Source of the DNA: Marsupella aquatica
Taxonomy: Eukaryota > Plantae > Marchantiophyta
Direction: 5' to 3'
NCBI GenBank assembly: GCA_973895155.1
Contig: OZ316895.1
Coordinates: 14,132,225 to 14,196,224 of the forward strand
DNA length: 64,000 nucleotides
Below the pieces are notes generated by a model. That model had not been told where the DNA came from and did not search any database. It was given only the letters and a program-made list of their open reading frames with translations. Position 1 is the stretch's first letter. The number at the start of each line of letters is the position of its first letter. Shown here one piece after another: positions 1-64,000 of the stretch. A program made the position numbers and the translations under genes.

Positions 1-3000
1 CCTGTTCTTCCTGGAGAGGATCGAAAAGGCGCATGATAATTGTCAGACGTTTCTAAACTACACATTTACCTTAGATTTGAAGAATGAGGAACCTTCATTG
101 TGCAAATATGAGGGCCAGGGATAATTACATTTGAAGAAGACCACATACTACATGTTTCACGGACTTGAAATCATATATGCAATTCTCTGTACTAATGAGG
201 AGATCAGTAGGAAGCGCTTTGCGCTTTCTCTTCTCTCAGCAGCCTTGCCAATGTCAAGAGTATCTAGAAGGGCTCCTATGCATATTGATCGACTTACCGG
301 CCTAGGTAATCTTCATTGATCCTAGGAAAGTCACTAGCAAATTCTCCAAGCTTTCTCTCTGTAGCTTCTCCAGTTCTCAGGTTGAGGCGATACTCCCATC
401 TGCGAAACATGGTGGTCATGATCTAGTCAAATCACCACTTCAGCAGCACCTGCTTACAGAAAATTACATCTATGCACACATCATGGTAACTTCAATTGAA
501 TGATGCAGAAAGTTAGGGCGACAGTACTTTAACTGGTAGAAAATTATATAATTATCATGATAGAATAAGAAGTTATACTATGTGAAGCAGGGTCTTTCTG
601 CAACGAGCTTCTTATCCTTCTAGGATACTTTCGTATAATTGTACTTGGTGAATTCATGTTGCTTGTGAACTAGGCTTTACAACAAGCACAATAAAAATTC
701 CGAGTACTAGGAATCTTGACATGACTCCAAATTGTATGGCGTATGTCAATAGGCCCCTTTCCTATTCAATTTATTCACGTCCTTGTACACTGTTAGCTAG
801 TAACCTATATGATTGACCAAATAGTATTGAGTTAACAAAAACCCGCCACCCATGTCGGTAGACTTAGGAAACAAGGATAGCTTGTCTTACAGATTGTGAA
901 CAACTCCTTCCAATTTTTCTTTTCCATATACAGAAAGAGCTCCCATATTGATCGAGGGGCTTCGGCATGCAATAACTACCACTTCATCTCCATCCTCCCA
1001 TGCATTTGCTGCCAGACAATCACAGGGCGTACTGTTAGGAGTACGATAACACCCTGTCCAGAGGGTGTACTGGCTTATATTTGCTCCAGGGCGCCAGTCC
1101 AAGGGTGATTCTAAGTCAGAATACCTCCTCTGACTCGGTGTTAACGAACGTACTCAAACCGCTTACTGAGGACATTTTTGAAAACAATTACTTAGTCAGC
1201 GACAGTTTAACCTTCCCGTCTCACCAGGAGCCCTGGTAAAACATCCGCAAGCTTGACCTTTGTGGTATGAAATGTTCGTTACACATGCCTCTATGATTCT
1301 GAAGTATAATGTATCCAGCAAATAAAGAGAAAATGTCCGAATTGGTTTTAGAATAACAACACTTCTCTTGAGAATTCCTTTTGCCCATACCATCCACCAT
1401 GCATTTAGGATACAACTTAAAGTTTTGTGTCACTGAATCAGCTGATTTTGCAAGACATTCTATTCGAAGTGGTGCTATGGAAATTAAGAATGAATTCAAG
1501 GGGAGCGTATGATATCAATTTTCCCGGCAACTCACTCACCGGTGTGGAGAATCATACATGTAGAAACGTCAAACCAGCGAAGCTGAGATTCGTGCTTGGC
1601 ATATCTTGGTAGGATTCCAAAACTTGCTGGTTTAGTTGGATCAAATAAAAATGGGTCTTGATTCTTCTGAACCATTTCCTATTAAATGTCAGGAACAGAG
1701 CTGAGAATTAGCCAGTCAGAAAATGTCACACTAGTATGTACTCGTTGCAAATTCGAATGACTGCATGCAAGATGTCAGATCATTGATCAGTAAGTCATCA
1801 CAGAATTCCATATCCAAAAGAGTCTTGGCTGAGGTTTCTCACCGAGGGACTGAAGTAAAGAGGACAATCGATGAAGATGGCATAGTTCTCAGTTATGACA
1901 AAGTCATGCATCATAATTGGCCCCGAGGGTATGATAGGAATACCATTTCCAATCACTCCATCTTTTGAGATGACACGGTATGTGACGTATGGATGAGCAT
2001 CGAGCAGGTATCCAAATGTGAACATTTCGCCTGCAGTGGACAAAATTTCATCAGATCTCCTCACAATACAAAGAGTCATCATAGCTTTGATGAGCCAGTA
2101 TGCTATATACAGATGAGGGAACAAACCTGTGTCAGGATCAATTTTCGGGTGTGCAGTGAAAGGATGATTCAACTTTTGGTCGTAGTCATATCGTCCAATG
2201 GTCTCCAAGTCACCGTCCTCATGTATATGTACAAGATCTGCAATGATCTCTTCAGTATCAGACCTATTCAGAGTCTCTACCTAAAAACATGACTTGCACT
2301 AGATCCATCATTGCTACCACTATGATGGACTCCCCAATTCTGTCATATGAGATCAGTAATTGACTCTGTTTTTTCATGAAAACAAACAAAGCCGCTAGCA
2401 AGCTATACGTATCAAACAGCTTGTTGTCCGGCCCCGGTAGACGGAAGATATACTTGTCGCAAAAAGTAGCTGAAATGAGCTACTGTGGCAAGGAAAAGGA
2501 AACAAAAGTCTGGATGCGAAAAGCAGATAGACGATTCATCTTAATATGCGGGTCATACATGGCTTGTCTGATTCGCTCAGAGCAAAAAGCTTCCCATTGT
2601 GAAAAGTCAGTCCGGTATTTGCTGCACGTCAAGAGTAATAAAATCCGAAGTCAAGAACAGGACCATAGTCAAGAATTGAATAGTTTAGAAAGGTAGTTGA
2701 AACTGCGGTTAAATTTAAGCCTCATAGGCTTGCATTGGGAGTGGTACGTTGTTGAAATATAATATTCACAACTAGTGTGAAATACAATAAGTTGCAGTCA
2801 GCTTGAAAAACAACGACCGTAGTTTGACATGATTGTTTCACACTGCAATTCTTTACCAGTGCCATATCCATTGGACAGATCCACAACACCTAGGGCCACT
2901 CGAAGCTTGAATAGAGTTAACCAAGCAAGTCCTTTGTTTCCGCTCAAATCTCCCATCTGCCATTTGTCAAACCAGAAAATCTTAGGGTTTACTGATCAAT

Positions 3001-6000
3001 AAGATGACATTCAGTCAAAGTTTATTTACCCAACATGCAACGCAGAAGTGGAACTACTCCCTTCTCAAGTAGATTTTACCGTTTCAACCTTTCATATCCC
3101 GGAAGGTTGCTGGAAAAGGAGAAATATTGTATGGGCTCCAAATTTTCCTCTTCTCCAGTTGACATGAAAATCACACATCAAGAGTTTTGGAGCATCAGCT
3201 CATTGCTTGTTTATAATAAGTCTGCACGGGATCTAAAGTAGTACCTCGTAACCCTGTGGGAAAACTGTTGGAGGCATGTAGATAGCCATCTAGCTATTAG
3301 CTAAAGGGTGCCCCTACATGCTACTGCAGGTCTGTTCTGGCCTCAATCGTTTGAACACGAAAATGTTATTCCAATTAGGACCTGAGCAATAGCCTGCTGA
3401 AGCACGTTTAATGCTTTATCATGTTCACGCATAGGATCTTTTATATTACGCAGAAGTCACCAAGCTTCAATTCGACATCTTGATCGACTAAGGCAAAGCT
3501 ATACCAGAACCAGCTCGCGCGAGTTGGTGAATGTCAATCTGACTTTGCAAGGGGCAAATAATTTGACTGGACAGTATCACATACTTTCGCATTTCAACTT
3601 AAAATGGGTTGCAAGAGTGGAGTATATGTTCTGCTTTTCAGAGACATGGGTTAAAATCTATCTAAGTTCGGTTGGCATTTGAGCCAGAAAGGAATCACCG
3701 AACAAGACATAAGTTGGTAATTAATAGAATTTATTTGATCAGGCTAGGAAAAGGAAAGATCATCACAGAGGTTATCATGGACAAAGTAAAGTAAACTAGG
3801 GAAACTCTCCCCAGGAAACTTCTTCAAGGAAAGAAACAAAATTCATAGAGATGGCAACGTCGCATTTGATGTGAGAGAGGAACAAACCCTCCAGAACGTG
3901 GGACCACCCCAATGCTCCTCCTGCCGCAGTCTTGATGTCCTTACGTAGCGTGAAGCGTATGTCACCTTTCCATCCTTGATTCTGACCCCATGCAGCATTC
4001 TTCGATCGTCCACAACATGCCAACGTCAGTACGGCGTCCTTTCTAACGTTCCTAATGACTGAGTTGAAATGCTTACACGACACCGACACCCCCGGAACAA
4101 AAAACTTGCGAATTTTGTAGATGACTACTTGGGAATCACGTTCGAAGACTCGTCGCCACGTCATGACTCAAGCAAGAAGGACAGTCAGTTGCATTCACCG
4201 GCTCGCGTACTGACAACTCTCGCCAACCTAGCTAGCTCACCGGCCTCTCGTGGTGAAAGCACACTGTAATGCACGCCTCACATCTGGTTAATTTGTCAAT
4301 GTCAATAAAACAGAGAACAGACAATATATCCAAATCGCAAGAGTTTCTATGGAGCAGCCGGATGTGACTAGCTAGCCGACCATGGTTGCTTCGAGAACAT
4401 ACCCATCTCCGTCAAACCTGCATCCCAGGAAAATTCGGGGCTATTAGAATTTCAACCTCATAAAAAACTGCTAGACATCCTTAAACATTCGTATTAAGAA
4501 TCATCCAGTTTGGTACCTACATCAATCGTACGTTTAAACAAGAAATCGAAGGTATCAATAGGAAACATCTACCTCTTGATACCTTTGCTTGTTTAGATGA
4601 TCGATCCTGGGTATGCAACTCCCCTTTTTATAAGGCAAATTTTTAATTCCTTATGACGGCCTTATATCCAGTTGACCATCTTAGATTTTATTTTAGTCTA
4701 CTAAAGTCTGGTACCTCTGAACTCAAAGAATTCAAAAATATAACTTTAAAAAAAAACCAAACATGTTTTGATGTACAAAAAGTTAATCAAAACCAAATTA
4801 TATGGGTTTTTTTTAATACAGGGGTCTACAGCCAAACTAGCCAGCTTTTTAGTATTTTTATTAAAATTTTAAAAATCTTTTAATAAAAATTATAACATGT
4901 ATAAGAATATTTTTTAATTTCATATGGAAAATGAAGAAAACCAAACCTTTTTATATGACTTGAAAATTTTTAAAAGAGGAAAACCAAGTTTTTTCAAATT
5001 TTAATTATTTTGTATAGTCAACTTTTTAGTCCACATAAAAATATATTATATAAGAGTTGCGTACCCGGGCGATCGATGTGTGCAAGTGGGGTCGAAAGGT
5101 CACAGGATGAGAGGAGAACCTAGACTTGCTTTCAAACTAGACTTTTCTGAAGACGACAAGCGAGCAGCTATGGAAGCAAACATGGCCGCTTTCAGAATTT
5201 GTCACTCTGACTAGCCATTGAAAATGTATGCTCTCTCTGAAAGTTAAGGTCTCTCACAATTCTATCAGGATGGGACGTACAGTGAAAGCGTTGGAGTACA
5301 ATGAGGCAGTAGCCATTACCAATGATACTTTGCAACCGGTTTGAACCTCGGATTTGGTCCCACGCGCAGAAACTCGCCGTTCAAACACTCCTGCTTGGCA
5401 CACCGAAACCGTATAAATTAGACTTGAGAACCCTTCGAAGCCGATCCAAATGTGCATTCTCCTCTCTGCCTCAGATCAGCAAACTCAGACGCAAATGCTG
5501 TTGAACAAGCTTTGCCGCAGCTGGGTTGAATTGCAATCTACTTTGGTTTGGCACCCAGCGGACTTTATAATCACTTCATCAATTCATTCGGCCTCGACGT
5601 ATACGCTCTCTAGCTAGCCTGTAACCCACTCGGCCTAGAAAGCTTTATGGGAGAAATGGACCGTCGATCATCTCATTCTCTCAGGGCTGTAGCGCTCAGA
5701 AATTCTCAATCGCCTGTTTGTTTAGATCATTCATTTATGATGTAGTCTTTGTAAGGAAGTTCAACCCACATGCACCCCCGTTAATGTGTTTACCTCCATC
5801 TGCTTCCCCTAGCCTACTGATCCCTGTACGTGCCTGCTGTAACCAATGGACTATATATCAAATTAACCCACTGTCTAATTAAGATCTCCATCAATTAGTG
5901 TCTATTTATGTCCATGTCAAGTCCCACGCAATGCGATCACGTACGTACTCTCCTGCTAGAAAGATTCTCAACCGTCCCTACCTCGAACCCTTATTGCTAC

Positions 6001-6386
6001 AGTCCATGATGTAGAGTTTGTTGTCGATCGTCACCAGGTGATTGAATTGGGAACTTCCCCAGTACCACTATTGTAATATAAACAAAAGAAAAGCTCAAGA
6101 AATTTCATGCAGTTTCCAGAACTTGAAGCACTCACAGGGAGGTAGCCAAGGACAGAGTGAACAGGCTCAGGTCCAAACTCGTCGGCCGGCGCATAGTTGC
6201 CACGCAAGTAATAATTCGTTGGCTTTGAGGAACCATGAAAGGCATGCAGCAGAGCTCTTTCGAATGCATCACAAAAAAGAGCTGAGATGGTTAATTTCAG
6301 GGACCTCTTCAGTAAACTACTGGTCTCCTCCTGCTCGTTCGCAGCATCTTCTGACTGTGTTGGGCGTTCAGACAATTCTTTAATTC
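1..6386 (-). CDS. CCD1: CCD1-like carotenoid cleavage dioxygenase, paralog A (multi-exon; 3' end beyond window edge; start codon not located)
   Basis: GT-AG exons on the minus strand: 6386-6136 (..[16 protein letters not shown]), 5390-5320 ([24 protein letters not shown]), 4417-4403 (FDGDG micro-exon), 3999-3888 ([21 protein letters not shown]), 2956-2857, 2621-2559 ([22 protein letters not shown]), 2237-2127 ([11 protein letters not shown]), 2030-1843 ([13 protein letters not shown]), 1678-1540 ([14 protein letters not shown]), 1008-891 ([11 protein letters not shown]), 399-298 ([12 protein letters not shown]), 10->1 (truncated). The frame is continuous and three of four Fe-binding His are visible. 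All ten exons from 5390 to 298 match paralog B in length. Confidence 0.93.
4606..5069. mobile_element. MITE-like non-autonomous DNA transposon (hAT-like 8-bp TSD) in a CCD-A intron
   Basis: Terminal inverted repeats cctgggtatgcaactc (4606-) and gagttgcgtacccggg (-5069). Flanking near-identical 8-mers tgatcgat (4598-4605) and cgatcgat (5070-5077). The interior is very AT-rich and non-coding. Confidence 0.65.
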
Positions 6387-6970
6387 CTGCATAGAATATA
6401 ACTCTATTAATCTCGCGTCAGTGATTAGACTCAATATCTTTTTCTGGCCGGCTACTTGCGATATATATACGGGCGAAAAGGAGAGGTTTCGACCATTCAA
6501 TTCTACCGTTGGAGTGTGGCCTAGGTAATTGACGGAATTGCGGCTCACGAGATTTGTGATACGGGTGTGCGAAACTCGGTACACGAAAAATTGGCGAAAT
6601 CCTTTTCACTTTGCAGCTGTCGATGTATACTTATCTACATAATGTTCTACGAGGATGTATTCGAATTCGATAGTTTCAGTCCTGCATTTGAGAAAATGGG
6701 ACTTTTCATTGGAAGGTTTTTCCTCTTGCCCCAAGTAAAACTTAAGAAAGATACTTTCGTTCCCTGCACTTCCTATGATGGAAACTTATATATGCCTGGG
6801 AACGATATATTGGTGATCGATGTCTTGTGGGTGATGACAGATTGCACTGGACTGCACAACAAACTGTTCGTTCATCTGAACAATTGCATTATGAATACAT
6901 CTCGAATTCATAGAACAAACTTAATAAGTAAAAAGTTTGGACGGGTTTGCTGCCTTAATTACCATAAAAT

Positions 6971-8496
6971 TGTATGATCCCAAGATCATTAAATTTGGGG
7001 ACCGCATTTGATGATTTCAGAGATGAAGCTCTAGGTAAACTTGGCAATACGGAAATTGTCGCTCGTCTTGTCCACTTTGTCCGAAAGATCATTGCCTTTC
7101 GATGAATGATTAATTCTGCGCCACCCCTTGAATATCCTCCACAATCCAAAGGGGTCGGAAGCCCGAACATCTTCAAAGACGTTATTCCCTCCACCATGAC
7201 CCTTCGATCAGTACAGGAGTCTGCCCTGGATAATGACAATCGGCAAGCTGATCATAGTAAATACTCAACGCATTCTGCCACAAATGCCAAGCGAAACAAT
7301 AATTAAGAATAAAAGGGACCTTGAACCCAATACGTACGAATCTCACCTCAAATTTTGGTCATCTCAACATCCAGTGAAGCTGAAGTCCGGCCGACCTTCA
7401 CTTCAGCGTCTCTCAAACAATCTGATCGCGCTCGAGTCCTCAAGTAATCTATTAATATAGTGCTCGAATCTAGGACCTATCGAGTGAAACAATTATGAAT
7501 TGAAGCGGCTCAGGTCCCTGAATTCATCGTTACTGACTAGCCGTTAGCACTACAGTTATTCATAGGTCCTGAACTTGATGGCAAGAAGTATTACTTAGTT
7601 ATGTGGAGAGACGGGATCAAGAAAGTCTCCCATGAATGTTACTAAAGCCTGTTACAACTCCAACAGCATGAGGTGATGGCGCGAGCGCAGCCCCAAGTTT
7701 GTTCAGTCGTACAGATATGCGGGAGGGACGGCAGCAGCAGGCAGGAGCCCGGCCCAATCTTCTGGCTGGCTCGCTCAATCGCCAACTACATAGTTTTACG
7801 CAATTCAAGATCGGTGTGCCAACGTAGTAGCTGCTGTGTTGCAATGCAGGCTACAAGAGATCCGGAGGCACGTAATTGTGGCGTGACTTTCACGAGATGG
7901 CTCTCAGGGGGGCTCTCAGGAGCGTTCTTTCTCGCCGCCGAAGACTGAGTATCTGGCAGCGTATCCACAAGTAATTTACTGAGTTGAGTTGAGTTTGGCC
8001 TCTGTCGTGTTGCCACCTCTCTGGTATCGCGGAGAAAACGAAGATATGAGAGATACTCTGAGCAAACCCACAAAAACATCTCACTCTTCCAGTGCTCTTA
8101 CTACAATGATGCTATTTATATGATTCTGACAAATTTCACTAATAAAGGGGAACAAATACTTGAACTCGATCAAAAGTCAGCCCTGTGCTCCATATATGAT
8201 TATCTTACTTGCGTTGAATGAGAATCAGTTGATCGAACTCCCGTTGACTAATTGCCGTTCAAGGGCGATCGAACATGGTAACTCGATCATGGAGTAGCGA
8301 TAACGCGCGCAAAAGTATAGATCTGTCCTTGTATTATTCCCAAGAAAAGTAAAATAATTATGACAACCTCCATATATGGTGTCAGAAGTACATCTCTCGC
8401 AAAAACAATCGCAGATCTTTGTTGAGTCAGGTGGTATTCCGTGCCCAAAATAGCAAACGAGGAGTCTAAGCTGGATCTTAACAAATGATCCTTACA
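6971..8496. mobile_element. possible solo-LTR or TE-derived insertion in the first intron region of CCD-A
   Basis: Begins tgtatgatcc and ends gatccttaca (TG..CA, loosely inverted). Contains an LTR-like ctatttata motif and no credible ORF. No matching target-site duplication was found. Confidence 0.25.
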
Positions 8497-8816
8497 ATAT
8501 CTTTATCATTTAAAGATATTGTAAGATTCTTAATGCAAGAGGGCGAGCTCAGAGAGAACCAACAGTTCGCAAACCAAACCGGAAGAAAAACAATGCAGGC
8601 TGGACTGTCATGTCAAAAGCAACTTCTTTTACGTATCTTGTCAAACTCGTAACTTTTACGTCCCCTCCATCTCAAGTGAGTGCAGCGTTAATTTGTCTAT
8701 TAGTCGTAGAATTGGCTTCCCTGTCCCTAAAGATATATAGAAACACAGTCCTAGATTTTCGGGTTTTGTCTGAATTGTCAATGAACCGCTTCGAAACCTC
8801 TTTTCGCCTCAGTCAC

Positions 8817-9011
8817 CAGATCGAACCTTCCCGGACTGCCTTCGCCGCAGTTGAACTTGCTGGGCACTTGATGATCTTCGCGACAAAGTTTCCGAATGTG
8901 ACGATGAGGGAGAGTTCGGAATGGCGAGCTTGGGGTCGACAATGTACACAGACTGCAGCTTGCCTGAGTGCAAGTTGATATTCCAAGGGGATTCCCAAGT
9001 TTTGGAGGCAC
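8817..9011 (-). CDS. candidate upstream (transit-peptide-like) exon of CCD-A
   Basis: Acceptor ttagttcag| and donor TCTG|gtgact bound a 195-nt, phase 1-1 exon that is compatible with the phase-1 start of exon 6386. It encodes a Ser/Arg-rich stretch (..PNSPSSSHSETLSRRSSSAQQVQLRRRQSGKVRS). The initiating ATG exon was not found. Confidence 0.4.
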
Positions 9012-9839
9012 CTGAACTAATTGAAATCACTAAAGACCAACAAAGCCCACGCTAGAAAGACAAAGAGTCCAAGAGAGGGGCCAAAATCTCCCCATGATCG
9101 ACGCCGAACATTCACGTAGCTAGCTAGCAATCTATCTACTTATCTGTCTATCCATCCATCCATCCATATAATTATAAAAAGTATGGGGATGGTGGAGTGT
9201 GAACATAATGGATCCTCAGTAACACTGGTTGGGCCTTTACGGCATTGTACGCTACCTTATGAAACAAAGCTGTCTGAGATGTGCTCACGAGCTTCGTTAG
9301 TAGCGTTCTTGCATGAGTTAATTCAGTTCTTGACGTGACCTGATTTGTGTCTGTTTTGCTCTTTCTCTTCGTGCTCCTCTCGTTCTTATCGAGTGTTTGT
9401 CCCGTTCTTGTTCAATTGAGTATTCACGACACAAATTTGGCCTAATAATAGTACCAGTGATTTCCCCCCAAAAAACGAAATGGTAGCATCACAAAATATC
9501 ACTAATATCATCACAATACTCCAAGGACGTTCGAACTGCTTTCTTATGGTTGTCATGGAATCTGGAAAATATATTTTATTAGGGAGAGTCACTACTGTGT
9601 TGAAAAATCATGTTAACTGTTGTGATGAGCTGTGCAACCGCGACAAGCACTACCTTGTCCAAGATTGTTGGATACTAGGTACACCTAAATTCAATAGAGG
9701 GCTTCAATGGAGTGTGCTATTGAACTGGAATAAACACTGTAGGGGGGACTTTACAAGTCAGAGCCTGCAGGCCACTTGGTTTATCCCCAATTAATTGTCC
9801 ACACCCAGATTTGCCCTCTCCTAGCCTCTTCCCTTTTCT

Positions 9840-9844
<5 letters not shown>

Positions 9845-9885
<41 letters not shown>
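9845..9885. repeat. (CT)n microsatellite
   Basis: Run of about 20 CT units. Confidence 0.95.
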
Positions 9886-9889
<4 letters not shown>

Positions 9890-11366
9890 GTTCTTTCATC
9901 TGATTGCTTGGGTGCGTCTCATCAGACATTCGGGGAGTTCCATGTGCGGCAAATTCATATAGCTAGGGTCATTTAAAAAGTCCAAGGACCAGCTAGCTAC
10001 ACCAATCATTTCAGTCCATGCCGTCGTTGGGAAAATGAGTTTAGTGAGCAGAGTGGGTTAAGCTGACTCGGGAAAACTTACCGTGGAATAGACCTTGGTG
10101 AGATTTCTTACTCTGGTTGGGGTAGAAAGGATGTAAGCTAAGTTTTTGCTTAAGTGATAAAGACAAAAGAAGAGTGGAGAAGACAAGTGTTAGCTAAGGT
10201 TAAAAGAGTTTTTGGACCTGAATGCAACACGTGGCAGCTTGAGGTTCAAACTGCATAAGGACAGTTGAGATGCAGGCTGTTTTGGGAGGTGTGGTGAATG
10301 GAGTGGCGGTTGCAACTTGCAATGTGTGGGTGTGTGTTGTTGATTTTGAAAAATCTATTGATTGGAGAAAAAGAGGAGGAATTTTGATGCGCAGCATCAG
10401 CCCGGGGTCCTCACTTATTTACTTTCTACCTATCACGCAAAAATCAGTATAAGGTTTGTTTATTAGGTTGAGAATAATACTTTTAAATTTCTGCAGAAGA
10501 ACATTAGTGTTTCAGAAATCTAATTTTGAGAAATAAGAAAAGAAAGGATTCAAAAAATGAGATTTAGGAATATTTTTAGAATATTCCAAAAAGATATGTT
10601 AGAAGTCACATTCTAGTGGGATTTGCATGATCCATCATTTACTTTCCTGTACCCCAAACTGGTCAAAGTAATCATATGGTTTGTAATTCTATAAACCCTT
10701 ATGATTCTGTCAAGCAAGTTCATGACTGCTGCCTTTCAACTCAACTTGTAAGTGCGTAAGGAGGGGGGGGGGGAGGGGGTTGTTGTTGTTGTTGTTGAGG
10801 GACATCCAGTACTGTAGATTGACACATAGTCTAGTGACATTGATGTAAGAGTCACTATTATCTGCAGAGATGTGGCCCAGTAGTTGAGATCGTTCCCATT
10901 TAGATTGCCAACAAAGTATGGTGTTGTGGGTTTGATTTCAACTTGCAAGTCTGTTGCCCCTACTGCACCTCCTAAAGATAAGCAAATTTTGAGCTCTATT
11001 GTTTTTTGGATAGGTGTAGTAGACTTTCCTAGTAGTGCAAAAATCACTTGTCAATTAAGCTGGCTGTTAAGAGGGCATAGTGTACTTTCCAAAAGCTAAG
11101 GTACATCCATCGTCCCTTACAGAGTTGAGAGCATGAAAGCAGAGAGGAAAACTTTACTGCTAGTCCAACCCCAATTAACCACTTCAGGTTGCCCCCAATA
11201 ACAAATGATTGGCTCAGTCCTTGCCCAAGATATAGGATGATGACAATCTGTGCACAAGAAATCCTGTGACCAAAGGGTGAAGAAAAGTTGACGGAGAATT
11301 GTGAAGATTTTTCAAGCATTCAGGGAACATGGTTAGACTAGAACCTCGGCCCAGACCATCCTACTA

Positions 11367-11740
11367 GGGCGTCTCAAAGCTGGCAATTTGATGTACCTTA
11401 ACTTCCTAGTTATGGGTTATGGACTACATAATTCACAGTGCATAACTTTTTGCCATAAGGATTGGTCTTATGCCATAACCATTAGTAACGGCTGAGGTTG
11501 GTGAAAAGAAAGAAAAAAAAAACTTTTTACAGAGTTTTATGAAAAAGTTACAACCTATTCTTTAGGACCAAATGCCATCATCCATAAATTCTCCCTAATT
11601 TCCAAGCTTTGAGACACCCATTTCCTACATAAGCATGGTGCCCAAAAAAGTTCACTATCATCCATAATTTCCTCCATAATTTCCAAGCTTGGAGACACCC
11701 TATCCTACATAAGTATGGTGCCCAAAATAGTTAACTATCG
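11367..11740. mobile_element. Tourist/PIF-like MITE with duplicated right end
   Basis: Left TIR gggcgtctcaaagc (11367) pairs with gctttgagacaccc (ends 11619) and with a second copy, gcttggagacaccc (ends 11700). An approximately 81-bp tandem duplication spans 11578-11740. Confidence 0.5.
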
Positions 11741-16959: not shown

Positions 16960-17489
16960 CTCTACCTCTGTCCCCAAGCACACACAGAGTACCCAACGAG
17001 CTCAAACTCAACGATCTCTCCCAAAAACCTGCGATGTCTTTTGAGGTCCTTGTGGACCACCCATATCCACAACTGTCTGGTCTCTGAAGATCACTCTTGA
17101 TACACGAGATGAATCACACGTTGGAGCAATGTGCATGCGAGAGAATTGCAGCGACAGAGGATTGCAGGGAGCTTGATGGACTCCTTCCCTCTACAGACTT
17201 TGGCTTTCCATATCTCTTGCTCGCGATGATGTTGGGACTCAATCATATTCAGGGGCATTCAAGGAGATTCGGTTTTATGTGTGGAGAGTTTGCATAACCA
17301 TAATTGAAGCACCTCCAACGAGAAAATGGACGAACGGAAGCAAATTCAAAAGTCAGTCTCTCTGTACAGTCGGTTCGTACTTTTGAAAATTTATGCATCA
17401 CTTAAACCCACTTTTTGAAAATTTATCCATCGCTTAAACCCCTCGTGTAGTTGTTCTTTTGTATTTCTATGGGTGATAATGAGCCATTA

Positions 17490-17953
17490 CCCTGCCACAA
17501 AGCCCGGGGCTATGAGATTTTGGCCCAGTTGATTACCCTGGACACACAGCACCATGGCGTTGTGTTCAAAAATGGAACCATGGCCTGGTGTTCAAAAATG
17601 TAAATTTTTGAGTCCCCTCACAGATAACATACTTGAACTCAAACACAACATCTTTTTAACACAATGTATGGGTGTTGTGTTCAAGTTGGATGCTCTATTT
17701 ATATTTTGACTCTAAAACTATTCTAAATTGAGCACAAAGAGTACAAAATTCAAGAATTATATGACAATGTTAATATTTGAATACAACGTCCAGTTTTGAA
17801 TACAACACCTTGCAAGTACAAAAATGAAAACACCTAGTCATAACTCGAAAATGGGCTTGAAAACAATGCCCCGGGTACACTATTCAAATAAAGTGCCCCA
17901 TGGCCCACTATCTGAATACAGGGCCATGGCCTTGTGTTCAGGAGAAAACGGTA
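17490..17953. mobile_element. dispersed MITE-like repeat, copy 1 (possibly Tc1/mariner-type end)
   Basis: Shares blocks with about 46800-47378: ccatggc..tgtgttc, ttgaactcaaacacaa, atatgacaa..aatatttgaa and gccccatggcccactatc. Ends ggagaaaacgg|ta. Confidence 0.55.
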
Positions 17954-18654
17954 ACCCGTCTTGGGGGTTATCCAAAATCAGGTGCAACTTCACTTTATAA
18001 ATATAGTAAAACTACACTTGGGGTTTACGCTTCTTAATCCATTGTCACTCAGGCTCACCAACCTTGGGGATTACATCTCACAATCCCCTTGGGGCCATGG
18101 GTTACCCTTCACATAATTAATGCCATCTTGATTCTTTGTCATTTTTTGATGCTTTTCTGGAGAAAGTGCAGATTTGGGTTGGGGAATTATAGAAGTTCTC
18201 CGGTACTCCTACTAAAAGTAGTAAAATGAAAAATCTCATAGGCCTCTAAGGATATCAGAGGCTCTTATGAGGGCATTGTGGACAGTATTGTGAGCAAAAT
18301 AGCCGCTCAAAACGCTAAAGCCCTCTTACCAGAGGATTACTAAATACTAAATTCTCCTTTGGGAGTCTTCGTCAAGAGCTAAAGCCCTCTTACAAGAGAA
18401 TTACTACATACAAGCTCTCATTGTGAATCTTCCTCTGTATCTTCATTGAATGTTACTGGCTATAACCACTTGGCCCCAAGCTTCTTTTCCTTGGTTGAAA
18501 TCTCTGTGTTGTGTGAGTGGCACTGATCAGTCACTCCTCCCAAGCTTAGTTTTTGAAACACTCACAAGGAGGGTTTAAGCTGGTAACCCATAAGCTTCCC
18601 AGGGTTAGGGACTGTAATCCCCTTGGGCTCACAAAGGGGCTCACAATATGGGCT

Positions 18655-18985
18655 CACAATATTAATACATTGTAACATCATCATATTACATTGTAACATT
18701 TTCACAAAACATATTGTACAATATATTACAATTCTATAATATGATGAAATAATATTGTAAATATGATGACAATTTGTAAAATATCTTACAATATGTTTTG
18801 TAAATAATTGTTAGGATATGATGACACCTGATCTTCGAAACAATTATTATTACATTGTAACAATGTATTACAAATAATGTAATAATTTGTAAAATATTGT
18901 ACAATATGTTTTACAGATTATTGTTGTAATAATATTATCTGTACAGGATAAATACATTATAACATTGCGTACAAATTATAATTCA
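18655..18985. repeat. AT-rich low-complexity/degenerate tandem repeat
   Basis: Recurrent attgtaaca, aatatt and ttacaa motifs in both orientations. Confidence 0.6.
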
Positions 18986-20501
18986 TTTTGTCTATCTTTT
19001 CCAGGTCTAGCTGCGACTTCCTCCCCCCTTGCTCTATATCCAAGAATTGAAAGCCCTTAAGTCATAAATCTCAGACCCATGCTGACACACTTGTGCTATA
19101 ACACAACAATTGGGCTTAGAGTGATATGGAAAATCCATCTAGCCGGCAACCACATGCCATAGTGCGTCAAAAACTCAGTCCCTTTTTGATGTGCATTTAC
19201 TGCAAGGCATCCATCTTTTGTCCAAATGAGTGTGGTCTGCTTTGGGCTCCATTGTGAAGGCAACACTCAATGTCAGGTTGCATGTTTGGACAGATTTCCT
19301 GTCGCATTTTGTTGTTTAACTACCAGAAAGGCTATAATTATATGGTTGATGAGTGCATTATGATGTCCATTGAAGGCTATAACTATATAGGTTGCTGAGT
19401 CCATGGCCCTTAAGTTGCACAATTGTTGTTACAGACATTTCATTGTTGCGATCAATTCATCATTGCTGCCATTTCATTCTTGGTCAATGATGTTGGTGCA
19501 AAAAAGTATCTAGGATTCAGGGTTAATGTAGCCTGGAAAAATTACTTCATAGAGAGAATAGAAAAAAATAAAAAGTTCTCAACTCTTTTCACCTCTTTTC
19601 AACTCAAAACTCTACTGCCTAAGGTTCTCCGTCTATCATTTTCCTTTATATTAATAAGGGCAAGCACGTGTCCAAATGTTTTAATGTAGAGCCCAGTTAT
19701 ATTTTCTTTTCAGCCCCACCTACCCATACTAGCTACATGTCAGCTCCACATTCGATTTCAAAGCACCTTGAGATTGGAATATTGTTATACAAGTGACTGG
19801 GTGAGTGTATGTGTGGGTGCAAATGAAGCTACGTCTCAAGCTAGGATTTACTCTTTATTCTTCCTTTTACCAGATCTCATGGCGATGGAAATTTATGAAT
19901 CACATCCAAGTCAAACATGAATTCTCTCTACAAGTGCATTTTGTAAATGGACGATGAGTGGAAAAGGTGGGGTTGGATATGACAGTGTTTAGATGAGTGC
20001 ATTTTGATTGCCAGAAAGGCGATAATTGTCGATGACAGTGTCCCTTTGTATAGCTATACAGCTGCATTGAGTCCCACTGACTGTCATCGCCTTTGGAGCC
20101 CATCTCCGTTTTGAAGGATGGATGAGATTATGTGGCTGGGTTGAGCTCCCTGCTGTCATATAATTACACAATGAATTCTGGCTCATGAGACAGAAGTTTC
20201 AGTCTTCACGAGCCGTCTGGCTCCTCGACGGGATCGGCGAATTGATCCTCTTATGTCAGATACTATCATATTATCTGGCTTGAATTCTGCTCAAGCTCAA
20301 GCTGTATGTCTCGAAAGATTGACTGATGCTGTTGTGTAGGACCTGTGAGTGAGCTTTAGATAGATTGAGCTGAGATACCCTCACTACTACTTCAGTGATT
20401 CAAAGATTGAAAGCTGGGTATGTACTGTCACAGACTGGATCTGCATTGATCTTTCCTTTGAAGGTCAGATTCTCAGAGCAAGGAATTATTGAAGATAATC
20501 T

Positions 20502-23500
20502 ATGGCTGCAGCATCATCTGCAATGGGTACATCTTTTCCTTCAAGTTCGCCTTCGTGTTTAGGCGATTTTCTGACGGGAAGTCGAAAAGTGGTTGGAGGG
20601 AAGCTTACAGTTCATCGGAGAACTTTGACTACTAGATTGCCATCTTCCAAGGAGTCGTTGCCTAGCGGGGTTTCGCAGAATTCCAGAAATGTTATCTGCA
20701 AAATTTCCGACGATGTGGTGATAGAAAGCACTGGTGAGAGCTTCTCCCACCCCTTGTGTAATGTTTTGTTGCCTTATCTTTGTTGTTGTCGTTTTACTTA
20801 GGTTGTTATATCTGTTCCGTTGGAGACATGTTGAGAGTTTTGATGAATTTGAGGCCACGAGAGAGAAGAGTGTGGGTGAAAATCGTTGCTTGACAGCTGA
20901 AAGGATGCAGATGCAAAGGGTCGTGAAATGCAAAAGGCTTCAGGGAAATCGGAGGCTCTTCGGAATACAGGGATTTCGCTCAATTCTCAGTCTAAGGCGA
21001 AGCATGTTGACGACCAGAAGATCAAATTACCTTTCTATTCCCACATTTCGAATACTTTCGTTGACGCGCTTGAGCGTAGCCTAGTGCGGGCGTTCTATAG
21101 TTCCTCCAAGCCTACGAATTACTACACGCTTGGGAATTACGCACCGGTCGAGGAATTTGGGCCTGAGCCAGTTCTCTCGGTGACTGGGTACCTACCGGTG
21201 AGTAAGTCAAATTTCAGGTCACGGATCGAGATTTATCTTCTGGTTCGTCTCAGCTGTTCTCCTAAACCCTAAACTCCTCTACTGTATTTGCGTTTTTAGA
21301 GTCGAGAGAGGATTGCGATCGAAAGTCGACGTCAAAGTCCTGTTTCAAATCACTTGTAGCAACTTAATTTGCATGATCGAGGAGAAAAATCTTGGAAGGC
21401 GAGTCCCCGCCCGTACTGTCTTGTTCTTTAGCTGCCAGTTCTTTGCTTTAATTTTCATCAGCAGTACGTAAGTGGACTTCAAGGATAAATTTCCAAAAGC
21501 CAGAGCTAGCTCGTGCCCCGTGTGGGCTCCAGTACAATTACATTCTTTCATTCATTCAAACATTCTTCTGTAAATCACAGACTGCGGGAGTTCGTAAATG
21601 AATGTGCAATCCTCGTCCATCGTGTACAGGATCGTAAGTATATGTGCAGAAACCAAATCACATTGAAAGAGACTTGAAGTAGGAGACATCCCATTGTAGC
21701 GACAGACAGAAATAGAAAGGTGAGTGGTGAGCATGTAGATCATAGCCAATGAGCGTCACTCACCGATTCAAATAAGTCCGACTTAGTCAGGGGAAACGTT
21801 CAATAGAGAGAAGAAGCAGATAGATTGTAACTCAGCTTTCAGCAGACTCCAACTCTAAGAAGGTTTATGCGTTCATGTGTCTCTACCAACCAGGAATGTT
21901 TGAATGGCGAGGTGGTGCGGGTGGGACCGAACCCCATGTTCGAGCCCATCGCGAAGTATCACTGGTAATTGCCACTGCCTCTTCGTACTAATTCAACTTA
22001 AATGACTCTTTCCATACCGATCATATGCCGAGAGAGTTGTGAACGCTTGATATGCAGCAGGATCGACACATAGCAGTAGGCGCAGTCCTTGTTCCGCATA
22101 GGGGGTAGTGTAAAGGTCCACCTGCAGGAGTTGTTACATAAAGGTTTTAATTACGAGCGGGAGGGAAACCCATCCTACCGTAATCCCGGAGACGATTTTC
22201 GCATGGGAATGGCAAATTAAGGGGGAGGTCAGGACTGAGAAACATCTTGGACAGTTCTGGACATTTCTGATCCAACATTATTTTATTTGTTTCGCAGGTT
22301 TGATGGAGACGGGTATGCTGGCCAAAACCAATTGTTGCCTAGTTTCATGCCACGGACCGTCAAGACTGTTAGCTTCACTGTAGTCAATCATGTGATGTCT
22401 CCAGTGTCCATTGGATTGGTATTTATCTAGAGTCTGAATTCCCTTTAGAGGCTTGGGTTATATGTAAGATTCTCCAAAGGAAGGTGGAAAGGTTCCGAAG
22501 TCAGATATTTTCTCATTGCAGCATGATTGTGCTCTTTAGTTAGCAAAATATTATTGATATCAAGAATATAGAAATCTGCTGGTCGTTCTGCTCGGAATGA
22601 ACGGATCAAGCAAGCCTTCAAGTCAGATAATTAATTGAATTCAATGTTCTCTACCTTGTTGGTCATCGTGAGAGCTTTTGGCCTACTTTGCATGCAGAAT
22701 GTTACATGGCTTGAGAATCAAGGATGGGCAGGTGACGTACTCCTGTCGATATGTGAGAACGGTACGATTGCAGCAGGAGGAGTATTGGGGTGGTTCAAAG
22801 TTTGTGAAGGTACATTGGTTCCAGTCTCCTTTACCAGGGGGAGCTGAAATACTGATCTAATTGTCGTGACTTCTATGCCTAGTTTTTTGTCAAATAAAAT
22901 GTAGGGCGCTATGAACTTCTCTTTCTTGTCACATGTTGCATAGGTTGGGCACGCATTGTCCATATTTGAGATGCGCAGTAAGGTTCGGAGATTACACACC
23001 ATTTAAAAATATTATTCTCAATATCTTCAGTTAATTTCAGTGGTTCGTCGGCAGGGTCTTGTTGTTATTCTGTCCATAGCTTTCTGTTATCTATGAGTCA
23101 GACAGGAATATCTGGACCATCGCGAATATGAAGCTTGCGCTCTAAATTTTCAAGCATTTTGATATTTCTTTACGTTTCGTCCCTACATATTTGTCTTAGC
23201 TAAAATCGGAGAATTAATGTTTCATTATGGGAGGGGTCCTGGACAATAGCTCAATGTGGTGAAAAGCTGTTTTGGGTAGCAATGTGAGTTTGCTTTTGAT
23301 CAGGTGTGTTGAGGAACTAAAGATTTCGCAGAATTGCATACATGGTCACTTCGTCACTGACCACTACGGAGTGAAATAAACCTGAGTGAAGCATACCTGA
23401 GATGTGGAATTCATAATTTTGACACAAGCGGTAACGAGAATTGGTTGGTAGGATTGATTATCCCTCGGCCGGAAAGGGTGGCACTCTGAATTTACAAAAA

Positions 23501-26500
23501 TTAGTGCAGCATATGAATGCAACATCTCAATTCTCCTCAATGCTCGGATTGATTATTCGAACCGCAGAGAAACATGAAATAGAGAAAACACTCATCATTC
23601 TGAACAGTAACATCGAACTTGAGAGCATGGTTTTTTTGTTTGCCCACACATGCAGATTGGAGACATGGTAGGGCTGAAAGGACTTCTTTCCCTGGCTCTT
23701 TATGGACTTAGAGCAAAACTGGGTGTGCTGGATTTGTCTAACGGAATTGGCACTGGTAAGGGATCGCAAACTGTCATTTAAAATGATACACTTGATTCAG
23801 CGCAGAGAGCATTTCATTGTAATTTCTTCCCTGTCATATCTACTCTTCCAATTTTATTTTCATTCTATTATTGATTTTATTTTCATTCTATTATTGATTT
23901 TATTTTTTCCCTTGTCTGGGTCTACTCTTAACTCCTGTCACTTCATTGGCTTTTGTGCAGCAAACACTGCTTTGGTTTATCACAGTGGGAAGCTCCTAGC
24001 TCTACAGGAGACAGACATGCCATGTATGAGCTATTAATTTGCACCGACATCACATAAATTATAAATGGCTATAGAGTCAGCTTATGTCCATATTCTATGC
24101 ACCTTAGTGGATAAGTACGTGATTTGCCTCTACCAGGCAAAGTAAGATGCAAACCGGCCCTCTCCGATCGGATCTTTTCCACGAGATGGCTGCCACATGA
24201 TTCCACCCTGAATCGCTTTTCTTGTCACGATCGGATCATCTGAGCAATACGACGAATCCAGCAAAGCTTTCGGATTAGTGTCGATAACTGGCAAGGTTCA
24301 CTTGCAAATCAGTAGCTTTTGTCCGGTGAGTGTCTTTCAGGTGTAGACGACGGTTACGCGGCTTCTGAGAAAGATTTTCTTAATCCAGAACTGATGGTCA
24401 TGGCAGATGTTGTTCGGGTACGTGATGATGGTGGCTTTGACACTGTTTCAAAACTGGACTATGACAAAAAGTTAGATCATCCTTTTACAGCCCACCCCAA
24501 AATTGATCCTGTCACAGGTATGGTCTGGCCCGAGAAAGTTGCAGCCACCTTCTGCAGGTTTCACTTGCCATTTACATTCCGGTCTCCTGATCTACTCAAA
24601 GTAGGCATGTCATTAACAGATATGGCAGAATCTTGTGTACTGCAGGGGAGATGTTTACATTCGGGTACAAGACCCAAGAAGTACCAGACGTATCATACAG
24701 AGTCATCTCAAAGGACGGCGTGATGGGGCATTCTGTGCCTATTACCCAATCAAGGCCAGTCATGATGCATGATTTTGCAATTACCGAAAACTACGCTATC
24801 TTCGTGGATGGTCCTCTCTACGTCAGCCCCAAGGTGTCCAACATCAGTCAATGCTTATCTCTATTGAGGATGGATTATTTTGTAACTGACTGACAAATAA
24901 CCTGTGATGGAGATATTCGCTCAGTTGTTTTAAGTAGCTCTGGTTTGCCATAACAGGATGTGTTCAGTGAGAGGCCGAAATGTACGTTTGAGCTGTTTTC
25001 ATTCTTTCACAGGGAATGGGAACGAAAGATCAATTTATATACGAATTCGATAAAACTGAACCTTTACGATTCGGAGTGTTACCGAGATATGCCAAAGACG
25101 ACTCTCAGATGCAATGGTTTGATTGTCCTGGCGCTTTCATTCTACACACCGGTCAGTGCTTTCCCAATTCAAGAATCGTCGTCTTTCATTTCTATTTCGT
25201 AGGTCTGAATCTAGCTTGTGTGTGAGCTCCTTTGCGGGACGGTACGTTGTCTAATGTCACATATGTCATGAATTTTCTCCCAGACACTGCTACTCAGAGA
25301 ACGGCCTCCCTTGATCGCATTCAATTATCTTGGAACAGTAGGCGTGGGGAGAAATTAAATCAACAATGATCAACTTTCCATACATTAGTGCCTTTCCTCT
25401 GATTATCTTGCAGCAAATGCATGGGAAGAAGGAGATGAAGTCGTTTTGATTGCATGTCAAGACTCCGAAATGGATCTGGAAGCATTTTCTGTTTATGACA
25501 AAGACAGATGTCAAGCAACTACACGATATCTGTAAAGCCATTGTCCATCACTTTTGTTTGATGCGCGTAGAGATTATGTGACAGAAAAAGTGTTCAGGAA
25601 GAAATTTACATTTCACCGATTTTCAAAATTTTCATAGTTGATTTGATTGAATAATTTGTGTGGATTGACCAATATACATATAGGTGGGAATATCGATTCA
25701 ACTTGAAGACTGGAAAGGCTCAGGAGAGAATGCTAGGAGAATTTCATGTCGAATTTCCTCGGATTAACGATAAATACATTGGACGGTAAGTTAACGTTGT
25801 TCGGGGCTTCACAATGCTCTTGCAGCCCGAACAATGCTCTTGCAGCCCGAAGCTTTGACGAAGAAGGACAGTACCGAGTGCTTAAATTAGAATTGCAGCT
25901 CACGCAATGTTTCTTCAAAATTAGGATTCATTAAATTATAGCTCTGTCCTGAAGTTGAACCCAAAGCTCTGTTTGCAATAACACAAAACAGATCGACGGA
26001 TTCTGACAAATTTTCATGCCATCTTGATGCATGGGGAATACAGCATGTGTTCATATATTGATTCCTTCAAGTCTCTGATACATATTTGTGCGCTAGAAGC
26101 TTCTGACATGCTACTCTCCATTTTTTTCCAGGAAGAATCGATATGTTTATACGGCAATATTTCGAGACACAACTCATACCATTGGACTTGCAAAATTTGA
26201 CTTGACGAAAGAGCCTGAGTTGGGTAAAACAAAGTTCGAGGTAGGAGGGAATGTGGCAGGTGTGATCTGGTATGGAAGTATGCGGTATGGGTCGGAGCCT
26301 ATTTATGTTCCCAAGAATCCTGGGAGGGAGGCTGATGAAGACGATGGATACCTACTCTGTTTCGTGTTTGATGAAAATACCTGGTGAGTTTGCACGCGCC
26401 AGAATCTCACCTCTTCATGCTGTATTAGTACATTCCACTGTACCATGAATTACGAAGGTCTAGAAGTCCTTTCTGGACTTGGTGATCGATGAGAGGGTTT

Positions 26501-26955
26501 TCATTCATGAGAGATTTCGTTATAAACGCCTGTGCTTCGAGGACGATGAGCAGTTTCTCTTGGATTTCTGGTTTCACAATTGACAGGAAATCCGAGGTGA
26601 TTGTGGTCGATGCGAAAACGATGTCATCAGATCCAGTTGCAGTTATTGAAATACCTTCAAGAATACCGTATGCCTTTCATTCGTCGTTTTTGACCGAGGT
26701 AAGCAAGCCTGCTGAATCGATGGATGCACTGTGTGCTTTTAGTCAAGCCTTCCACTGTCTGGTAATTGGGTGAAATGGGTGTACTGGTTCCATTATCGCA
26801 ATGTGATTACGCCGCAGGTTTATCGTAGAGTGTCGTAGTTTGTTATTGAGAAACCCCTTCAGGATCAATTAGTTGCAGATTACTCCAGTGTGGAACTTAA
26901 TCTGGAGTGGTTCTTATCGTGTCTGCAGGAACAACTGCGGTTACAAAAGTCGTAG
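20502..26955 (+). CDS. CCD1: CCD1-like carotenoid cleavage dioxygenase, paralog B (about 642 aa, 15 exons, N-terminal plastid-transit-like extension)
   Basis: Exons 20502-20733, 20911-21197, 21894-21964, 22298-22312, 22698-22809, 23656-23755, 23961-24023, 24407-24517, 24646-24833, 25013-25151, 25414-25531, 25684-25785, 26132-26383, 26587-26698 and 26929-26955 total 1929 nt in frame, ending at TAG. All four His ligands are present (FTAHPK, MMHDF, FILHT, YAFHS), along with GNYAP, GPNP, WFDGDG, YGSEP and EDDGYL. The exon-2 acceptor at 20911 is the least certain boundary. Confidence 0.93.
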
Positions 26956-63700: not shown

Positions 63701-64000
63701 TCCATTTGCTTCCAGCATTCCAAGAGAAATCAAGTTCTTTTTCATGTCAGGTATGTGTCTGACATTACTCACTGTTCGCACAGCTCCATCAAACATCTGA
63801 ATTTTCACGGATCCAATTCCAACAATTTGACAAGGATGATCATTCCCCATCAACACGGAACCGGTTGATACTGAGTAAGAAGTAAAAAACTCTTTCATAC
63901 AACAAATATGATAGGTACAGACACAATCTAAAATCCATTCATCACCGTTGTTACTGGATGAAATGCAAAGGGCAACATCTGGACTTCAGAAGATTTCATC
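60758..64000 (-). pseudogene. copia pol polyprotein interrupted by in-frame stops
   Basis: Motifs WHCRLGH, CEHC, HSDVWGP, LRSDNGGEY, YKARLVAKG, QMDVVTAFL, LYVDDML, GYVDSDYGG and KHIDIRYHFIR. The two ORFs are in the same frame, separated only by TGA at 61867-61865 (LKQAP*QW, canonical LKQAPRQW). A second TGA lies at 63988-63986. The protease motif reads WILDCV instead of WILDSG. Confidence 0.9.

What the first reader, a model, noticed from the sequence alone, without database searches (positions are those of the whole stretch)
1..26955. Candidate apocarotenoid biosynthetic gene cluster: CCD1-like / CYP746 / CCD1-like
Seen: two diverged CCD1-like dioxygenases with uninterrupted frames flank one intact P450 within 27 kb, with no other credible gene between them. 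Known: in plant apocarotenoid pathways a CCD product is often oxidised by a P450. For example, CCD7/CCD8 make carlactone for CYP711A/MAX1, and cyanobacterial CYP120A1 hydroxylates retinoids. To my knowledge CYP746 has no established substrate. Inference: CYP746 may tailor a cleavage product of one or both CCDs, giving an undescribed bryophyte apocarotenoid signal or metabolite made by a physically clustered pathway.
Basis: partly seen in the sequence, partly recalled or inferred. Interest (0 to 1): 0.88.

Follow-up and report, generated by a model that had tools for sequence, protein, structure and literature searches.

The report
Old liverwort carotenoid-cleaver and P450 pair
Two carotenoid-cutting enzyme genes flank an orphan P450 gene in what is likely a leafy liverwort, and the pairing appears in two other liverworts but apparently not in moss or algae, so it is an old gene neighbourhood that likely reflects inherited gene order, though an untested shared pathway remains possible.

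Summary
The three genes are real. Spliced models with GT-AG introns and no stops give CCD-A (minus, 7197 to the window edge; its last exons lie outside), a P450 (minus, 16959-12822, 507 aa) and CCD-B (plus, 20502-26955, 631 aa). The nearest named relatives are from Calypogeia fissa, a leafy liverwort. The P450 fits CYP746 by tree and taxon range; both CCDs are CCD1-type.

New result: the CYP746-CCD1 adjacency is not local chance. It recurs as consecutive accessions in C. fissa and as consecutive locus tags in Riccia sorocarpa, the other big liverwort class. It was not seen in Physcomitrium (chromosome assignment recalled), in 80 mostly algal loci or in 80 bacterial loci. The CCD-A/B split is old, and both carry a transit-peptide-like first exon that Marchantia, Riccia and angiosperm CCD1 lack.

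About 10% of genes stay collinear across these liverwort classes anyway. CYP746 is an older single-copy green-lineage gene. No expression or chemistry could be tested. Best reading: inherited gene order plus CCD1 duplication (0.55). A shared apocarotenoid pathway stays open (0.3; 0.4 with the P450 acting upstream).

The parts
1..7197 (-). CCD-A, CCD1-type dioxygenase; 13 exons in the window (7197-6963, 6386-6136, 5390-5320, 4417-4403, 3999-3888, 2956-2857, 2621-2559, 2237-2127, 2030-1843, 1678-1540, 1008-891, 399-298, 10-1), cut by the window edge
   Evidence: GT-AG, no stops; 73% to Calypogeia fissa P0003; His312, His361, His427 present
6963..7197 (-). CCD-A exon 1, predicted plastid transit-peptide region
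   Evidence: first 60 aa: 11 Ser/Thr, 3 acidic; conserved in the C. fissa orthologue; absent from Marchantia, Riccia and angiosperm CCD1. Targeting is inferred from composition only
12822..16959 (-). CYP746-type P450, 10 exons, 507 aa (16959-16685, 15824-15776, 15656-15522, 15403-15190, 15032-14854, 14731-14660, 14429-14287, 13939-13772, 13365-13227, 12971-12822)
   Evidence: Pfam p450 on exon 8; I-helix, ExxR, PERW and heme-Cys motifs intact; 62-66% to moss orthologues; groups with Riccia and Calypogeia proteins, support 95
16960..20501 (.). 3,542-base stretch between the divergent start codons of the P450 and CCD-B; possible shared promoter (untested), contains repeats
7198..12821 (.). 5,624-base stretch between the P450 stop and the CCD-A start (same strand, P450 upstream); no gene found
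20502..26955 (+). CCD-B, CCD1-type dioxygenase, 15 exons, 631 aa, complete
   Evidence: Pfam RPE65 on exon 13; four iron His at 312, 361, 427, 617
20502..20733 (+). CCD-B exon 1, predicted plastid transit-peptide region
   Evidence: first 60 aa: 19 Ser/Thr, 2 acidic; targeting inferred

Best explanation
Two CCD1-type genes flank an intact CYP746-type gene here, and the CYP746-CCD1 adjacency likely dates from before leafy and complex-thalloid liverworts split, kept most likely as inherited gene order rather than as one pathway. In the leafy line CCD1 duplicated early (the A, B and a third lineage), and the copies gained a first exon predicted to send them to the plastid; two copies stayed beside CYP746. 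Each CCD would cut carotenoids with a four-His iron centre, by default at the 9,10 bonds, giving ionone-type C13 and longer aldehyde products (inferred from family). CYP746 would keep an older job shared by green algae and mosses, oxidising a lipophilic substrate, probably as a non-ER enzyme, without depending on these neighbours. Shown: gene structures, motifs, trees, accession adjacency. Inferred: splicing, targeting, cleavage site, the P450's role, and the reason for the linkage.
For: Adjacency: C. fissa CAM6104567.1 (P450) and CAM6104568.1 (CCD-A orthologue fragment), both on a 12,223,846-base contig; R. sorocarpa R1sor_000206/KAL3682184.1 (P450) and R1sor_000207/KAL3682185.1 (CCD1), both on a 52,307,933-base contig. 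Background: roughly 10% of genes are collinear between C. fissa and M. polymorpha (bioRxiv 10.1101/2025.04.01.646537, passages), so some pairs persist without selection. Independence of CYP746: single copy in Chlamydomonas and Physcomitrella (PMC11586672 Table 2); 0 of 80 metagenome CYP746 loci hold a CCD (25 distinct genes, 13 with at least 3 kb on both sides); P. patens CCD1 genes are on chromosomes 12, 18, 21, 22 (PMC5750630 Table A1) while its CYP746-type gene is on a 13,750,750-base sequence (chromosome 24 by recall). No Marchantia protein and no full-length Calypogeia protein among the best 120 of 536 hits, though both have CCD1. Old duplication: A+B as sisters rejected, p-AU 4e-6; the 7 extension-bearing CCD1s form one clade, 95/96; dS about 1.06, dN about 0.26.
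Against: Roughly nine in ten genes do not stay collinear across this split, and Apopellia and Marchantia show no significant collinearity (PMC12885004, passages), so retention is several times more likely under selection on the link. Both CCD copies stayed next to the P450 through an old duplication. The enzymes are chemically compatible, and CYP746-type proteins lack an N-terminal membrane anchor (best 19-residue hydropathy 0.94-1.21 in 7 of 7), which fits a shared plastid location.
Confidence: 0.55

Rival explanations
1. A small clustered apocarotenoid pathway: plastid CCD-A or CCD-B cleaves a carotenoid, and CYP746 oxidises the product (for example an apocarotenal to its acid, or a ring hydroxylation), as MAX1 does after CCD8. 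Selection keeps the genes together in liverworts.
For: Adjacency in both large liverwort classes against a roughly 10% background. Divergent P450/CCD-B starts 3.5 kb apart. Predicted shared compartment. A CCD-then-P450 route is shown in a liverwort (CCD8 then MpaMAX1; PMC9270392, passages). One cyanobacterial locus has a CYP120-type gene overlapping a CCD1-like gene. Both window CCDs carry Leu before His427 where 9 of the 11 other rows have Phe, a possible shift in substrate pocket.
Against: No link in moss (partly recalled), 0 of 80 mostly algal loci, 0 of 80 bacterial P450-relative loci, and only 1 of 63 bacterial CCD1-like loci with any P450, which is 26% identical to the window's and not CYP746-like. 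The Riccia partner CCD1 has no N-terminal extension, so the compartment match is not ancestral. Both outside P450 models are fragments (265 and 372 aa); the Calypogeia one is out of frame in exons 1 and 8 and sits by a truncated CCD-A. Only two enzyme classes are present, and the next genes on the right are unrelated.
Confidence: 0.3
2. Functional link in the other order, or co-regulation only: CYP746 oxidises an intact carotenoid or another plastid lipid, and the CCDs cleave that product or share a light or stress promoter with it.
For: The closest solved plant P450s to the moss orthologue are the carotenoid hydroxylases CYP97A3 and CYP97C1. CYP746 is conserved in green algae like the single-family clans. 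Head-to-head layout with CCD-B.
Against: The CYP97 resemblance is about 25% identity, on a par with unrelated P450s, and a Streptomyces enzyme ranks first. The orientation of the pair in Riccia and Calypogeia could not be read.
Confidence: 0.1
3. Recent chance: a local CCD inversion-duplication happened to enclose an unrelated P450 in this species alone.
For: CCD-A and CCD-B face in opposite directions and share intron positions.
Against: The duplication predates the split from Calypogeia, and the adjacency is seen in Calypogeia and Riccia.
Confidence: 0.05

Closest known systems
Plant CCD1 (carotenoid 9,10(9',10')-dioxygenase; PDB 9LUZ; Marchantia MpCCD1a Mapoly0003s0307)
   Same: RPE65 domain, four iron histidines; the Calypogeia orthologue of CCD-A scores E 1.3e-206 to 9LUZ against 1.4e-102 to NCED 3NPE; 61-65% identity to Marchantia CCD1.
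   Different: N-terminal transit-like extension of about 75-100 aa with its own exon; several paralogue lineages; Leu instead of Phe before His427. CCD1 is described as cytosolic (PMC8624010, passages).
Crocus CCD2
   Same: A plastid-located carotenoid dioxygenase; its derivation from CCD1 is recalled.
   Different: Independent origin in Crocus (recalled); cuts zeaxanthin at 7,8; no evidence here for that cleavage site; no sequence comparison made.
CYP746 (single-family clan)
   Same: 64% to the single Physcomitrium protein; green-lineage clade; found in algae, mosses, liverworts and a fern, with no seed plant named among the best 120 hits, matching the published range.
   Different: No database record seen carries the name CYP746, so the label rests on range and copy number. 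No substrate was found in the passages read.
CCD8 then CYP711A/MAX1 (strigolactone, bryosymbiol)
   Same: A CCD product oxidised by a P450, shown in Marchantia paleacea (PMC9270392).
   Different: Different CCD and P450 families; the passages read do not say these genes are clustered.
Cyanobacterial CYP120A1 with carotenoid oxygenases
   Same: One cyanobacterial locus (L204) has a CYP120-type gene (E 6.6e-156 to 2VE3) overlapping a CCD1-like gene.
   Different: That P450 is 26% identical to the window's; 1 of 63 loci only.
Marchantia MpCPT5-MpMTPSL2 monoterpene cluster (bioRxiv 10.64898/2026.07.16.738752)
   Same: A small liverwort cluster with a bidirectional promoter, about 35 kb (passages).
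   Different: There co-expression and H3K27me3 cover were shown; here neither could be tested.

Membership tests
CCD1 subfamily | RPE65/carotenoid oxygenase domain | tested here: met
   PF03055 on CCD-B exon 13, E 2.6e-14; a CCD1 profile finds exons of both genes
CCD1 subfamily | Four iron-binding histidines | tested here: met
   CCD-B His312/361/427/617; CCD-A has the first three, the fourth lies outside the window
CCD1 subfamily | Closer to CCD1 than to NCED/CCD4 | tested here: met
   Calypogeia relatives P0003 and P0005 score about twice as high to 9,10-dioxygenase structures as to NCED; my trees had no NCED/CCD4 outgroup
CCD1 subfamily | Cytosolic, no plastid transit peptide | tested here: not met
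   Ser/Thr-rich, acid-poor N-terminal extension in both genes; judged by composition, no targeting predictor available
CCD1 subfamily | 9,10(9',10') cleavage activity | not testable with these tools
   needs an assay
CYP746 | Intact P450 motifs (I-helix Thr, ExxR, PERF/W, heme Cys) | tested here: met
CYP746 | Over 40% identity to a named CYP746 | tested here: inconclusive
   64% to Physcomitrium XP_024363190, but no record seen is labelled CYP746; the 40% rule is from PMC10548706
CYP746 | Range: green algae, mosses, liverworts, few ferns, no seed plants; single copy in Chlamydomonas and Physcomitrella | tested here: met
   named hits among the best 120 of 536 and tree
Plant biosynthetic gene cluster (criteria recalled; co-expression and H3K27me3) | Three or more linked enzyme genes of unrelated classes | tested here: inconclusive
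   three genes but two classes; left flank unseen; right neighbours unrelated
Plant biosynthetic gene cluster (criteria recalled; co-expression and H3K27me3) | Linkage conserved in relatives | tested here: inconclusive
   kept in 2 other liverworts; not seen in moss, algae, bacteria; Marchantia unresolved
Plant biosynthetic gene cluster (criteria recalled; co-expression and H3K27me3) | Co-expression and H3K27me3 cover | not testable with these tools
   no RNA holder listed
Plant biosynthetic gene cluster (criteria recalled; co-expression and H3K27me3) | Enzymes act in one pathway | not testable with these tools
   needs assays or knockouts

The most novel reading that the evidence does not exclude
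An apocarotenoid gene cluster as old as the liverwort radiation, in which plastid-targeted CCD1 paralogues feed the orphan CYP746. It would give the first substrate for a P450 clan kept from green algae to ferns and lost in seed plants, and a new bryophyte apocarotenoid.
Probability: 0.3. Interest if true: 0.8.

Novelty: new variant of a known kind. Interest (0 to 1): 0.5.

Why it matters
No substrate for CYP746 turned up in the passages read, though the gene is kept across green algae and bryophytes. A conserved neighbour gives a concrete and cheap first guess: CCD1 products. Few clusters have been characterised in liverworts. Apart from the cluster question, a clade of leafy-liverwort CCD1s with a predicted plastid-targeting exon departs from the rule that CCD1 is the one cytosolic CCD, and may make different apocarotenoids. 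My searches found no paper on the linkage or on this clade: 'CYP746' (26 papers, titles and abstract starts listed, 4 read in passages); liverwort + carotenoid cleavage dioxygenase + CCD1 + gene cluster (0); Marchantia + CCD1 + bryophytes + apocarotenoid (3); CCD1-like + moss + plastid + carotenoid cleavage (1); CYP746A1/B1 and clan 746 (5). Subscription journals are mostly not held.

Tried and rejected
No whole genome is held for the window, so other CCD1 or CYP746 copies and the left flank could not be read. No RNA holder listed; the four runs are contigs with intron cover like DNA, so nothing on expression or splicing. Atlas search of the moss orthologue gave generic P450 clusters only. A 12-sequence AlphaFold model of the moss orthologue (pLDDT 74) and Foldseek gave a generic P450 fold; no substrate can be read from it. 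Marchantia neighbours of Mapoly0003s0307 stay unknown: two papers were not held, and supplement searches in PMC9946954 (11 files searched, one cut when stored, one further file unreadable), PMC6174852 (cut when stored) and PMC11840003 gave no neighbour annotation and no CYP746 entry. bioRxiv supplements are closed; those of the fern CYPome and the Calypogeia genome preprints may list CYP746 genes and expression. Moss CCD1 locus tags for Ceratodon and Sphagnum could not be obtained, so their CYP746 tags were left unmatched; likewise Spirogloea, Mesotaenium, Closterium, Adiantum. A recalled claim that CCD8 and MAX1 are clustered in M. paleacea was not found in the passages of PMC9270392 (12 of 13 places shown) and is not used. 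A bacterial precedent for CYP746-like plus CCD1-like was sought and not found: 0 of 80 loci (best 80 of 601 from 4 of 64 parts of the collection) and 1 of 63 the other way round, flanks of 1.5 kb only. Contig depth differences in run X1 were not read as copy number.

Full report
Observation. The window is intron-rich plant DNA with only short ORFs in 1-27 kb. Exons read from the sequence and joined by coordinate give three open frames with GT-AG junctions throughout. CCD-A runs on the minus strand from 7197 and is cut by the window edge 10 bases into exon 13; a contig of run X1 continues 3,100 bases beyond. The P450 runs on the minus strand from 16959 to 12822 (10 exons, 507 aa). CCD-B runs on the plus strand from 20502 to 26955 (15 exons, 631 aa). 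So the P450 lies 5.6 kb upstream of CCD-A on the same strand and head-to-head with CCD-B, 3.5 kb apart. No other gene was found between them (0 of 7 gap ORFs with a Pfam hit; 0 Rfam matches). The next genes to the right are a PI-PLC-X-like gene (recognised by eye, label recalled) and a receptor-like kinase. Splicing is inferred; no RNA holder was listed.

Identity of the genes. A search with CCD-B exon 13 gave 14 of 51 candidates, led by Calypogeia fissa (74-77%), then Riccia and Marchantia (69%) and angiosperms (52-59%). The host is therefore likely a leafy liverwort. CCD-A is the orthologue of C. fissa P0003/P0017 (73%, support 100/100); CCD-B groups with an unnamed 641-aa protein. The Calypogeia relatives score about twice as high to solved 9,10-dioxygenases as to NCED. 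CCD-B has all four iron histidines and CCD-A the three inside the window. The P450 has intact motifs, is 62-66% identical to moss proteins, and falls with Riccia and Calypogeia proteins (support 95) inside a green-lineage clade with Chlamydomonas, apart from bacterial relatives at about 35-40%. Its range among the best 120 of 536 hits (algae, mosses, a liverwort, a fern, no named seed plant) matches that published for CYP746 (bioRxiv 10.1101/2021.03.23.436569, passages; PMC11586672, passages and two supplement rows). No record seen carries the name itself.

Is the linkage conserved? In C. fissa the only hit to P450 exon 4 (1 of 27 candidates) is CAM6104567.1, and the next accession, CAM6104568.1, is a CCD-A fragment; both lie on a contig of 12,223,846 bases. 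In Riccia sorocarpa the P450 is R1sor_000206 and CCD1 is R1sor_000207, both on a contig of 52,307,933 bases. That accession order follows gene order is an inference; distance and orientation could not be read. Riccia belongs to the other large liverwort class (split dated 294 Ma, 95% interval 217-370). Against wider conservation: Physcomitrium CCD1 genes are on chromosomes 12, 18, 21 and 22 (PMC5750630 Table A1), its P450 on a 13,750,750-base sequence that I recall as chromosome 24. None of 80 metagenome loci holds a CCD; these are mostly compact marine loci that I take for green picoalgae, and amount to 25 distinct genes, 13 with at least 3 kb on both sides. The same CCD profile finds 21 CCD-bearing frames in the window as a positive control. 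No Marchantia and no full-length Calypogeia CYP746 appeared. Both outside P450 models are partial: the Calypogeia one matches window exons 1 and 8 out of frame, which may be misannotation or a recent break, and two other, full-length CCD-A copies lie on other contigs in a genome with a recent duplication.

How much does retention mean? About 10% of genes are collinear between C. fissa and M. polymorpha, and Apopellia shows no significant collinearity with Marchantia (PMC12885004). There is one independent deep comparison here (Riccia); Calypogeia is a near relative. My rough estimate is a likelihood ratio near 5 for a selected link, against a low prior, since many pairs survive by chance and true clusters are few. 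That leaves about 0.4 for some functional link and 0.55 for inherited order.

The CCD1 duplication. CCD-A and CCD-B are not sisters (p-AU 4e-6); with the Calypogeia proteins and the unnamed 641-aa protein they form a clade of 7 rows (95/96) apart from Marchantia and Riccia CCD1 (13 rows, core region, no NCED outgroup). dS is about 1.06 and dN about 0.26 over 393 codons. The five members of this clade aligned have a Ser/Thr-rich, acid-poor N-terminal extension (11-19 Ser/Thr and 0-3 acidic residues in the first 60), in the window encoded by a first exon ending in phase 1; Marchantia, Riccia and angiosperm CCD1 lack it. CCD1 is described as the one cytosolic CCD (PMC8624010, passages), so plastid-targeted CCD1s would be a departure, recalling Crocus CCD2. 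CYP746-type proteins lack a hydrophobic N-terminal anchor in 7 of 7 checked, which suggests a soluble or organellar enzyme. Both points are inferred from composition.

Mechanism. Most likely, an ancestral liverwort had CYP746 beside CCD1; in the leafy line CCD1 gained a plastid-targeting exon and duplicated around the P450. The CCDs would cut plastid carotenoids, by default at 9,10, while CYP746 does an older job that it also does in algae and moss, where no CCD was seen nearby. An earlier finding of this scan on a myxobacterium-like CCD1-P450 operon prompted a bacterial check: 0 of 80 loci of CYP746-related bacterial P450s hold a CCD, and 1 of 63 bacterial CCD1-like loci has a P450, a cyanobacterial CYP120 type 26% identical to the window's. 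Structure searches with the moss orthologue rank Streptomyces CYP184A1 and the carotenoid hydroxylases CYP97C1/A3 first, at 25-30% identity; this does not name a substrate.

Verdict. Real genes, an old and apparently unreported liverwort adjacency, and a distinctive extension-bearing CCD1 clade; no evidence yet that the three genes form a pathway. New variant of a known kind, interest 0.5.

Noticed in passing
window 16528-16616 and 16844-16932: An 89-base piece of P450 exon 1 is duplicated (91% identical) in intron 1; it could offer an alternative first exon or be a dead copy.
   Followed up: partly
window 3997-5358 and 21164-21894 (joints in runs X3, X4): Contigs of organism B join CCD exons with no intron and some other letters between, which suggests an intron-less (processed) CCD1-like copy elsewhere in that genome.
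   Followed up: no
window 1-4638: In run X1 the contig carrying the 3' part of CCD-A has about twice the depth (21.4) of the contigs over 5004-19866 (about 11); a further near-identical copy may exist, but depth is no copy number.
   Followed up: no
window about 33590-35270, plus strand: Three-exon gene resembling plant PI-PLC X-domain proteins (label recalled; the two ORFs tested had no Pfam hit).
   Followed up: no
window about 36870-45500, minus strand: Multi-exon receptor-like kinase with kinase exons, a membrane segment and LRR-like pieces.
   Followed up: no
window 60758-63985, minus strand: Ty1/copia-type retrotransposon pol region (integrase, reverse transcriptase) split by one stop between two ORFs.
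   Followed up: no
window about 4610-5070, 10.0-10.7 kb, 11.3-12.0 kb, 17.3-18.7 kb: High-copy dispersed repeats, one inside CCD-A intron 3.
   Followed up: no
window 52528-52938 and 54015-54431; 53003-53695: A 418-base inverted repeat (94%) enclosing a tandem array of about 205-base units; transposon-like.
   Followed up: no
L204:1495-4243 (G379): Cyanobacterial CYP120-type gene overlapping a CCD1-like oxygenase gene on the same strand, a likely two-gene retinoid or apocarotenoid operon.
   Followed up: partly
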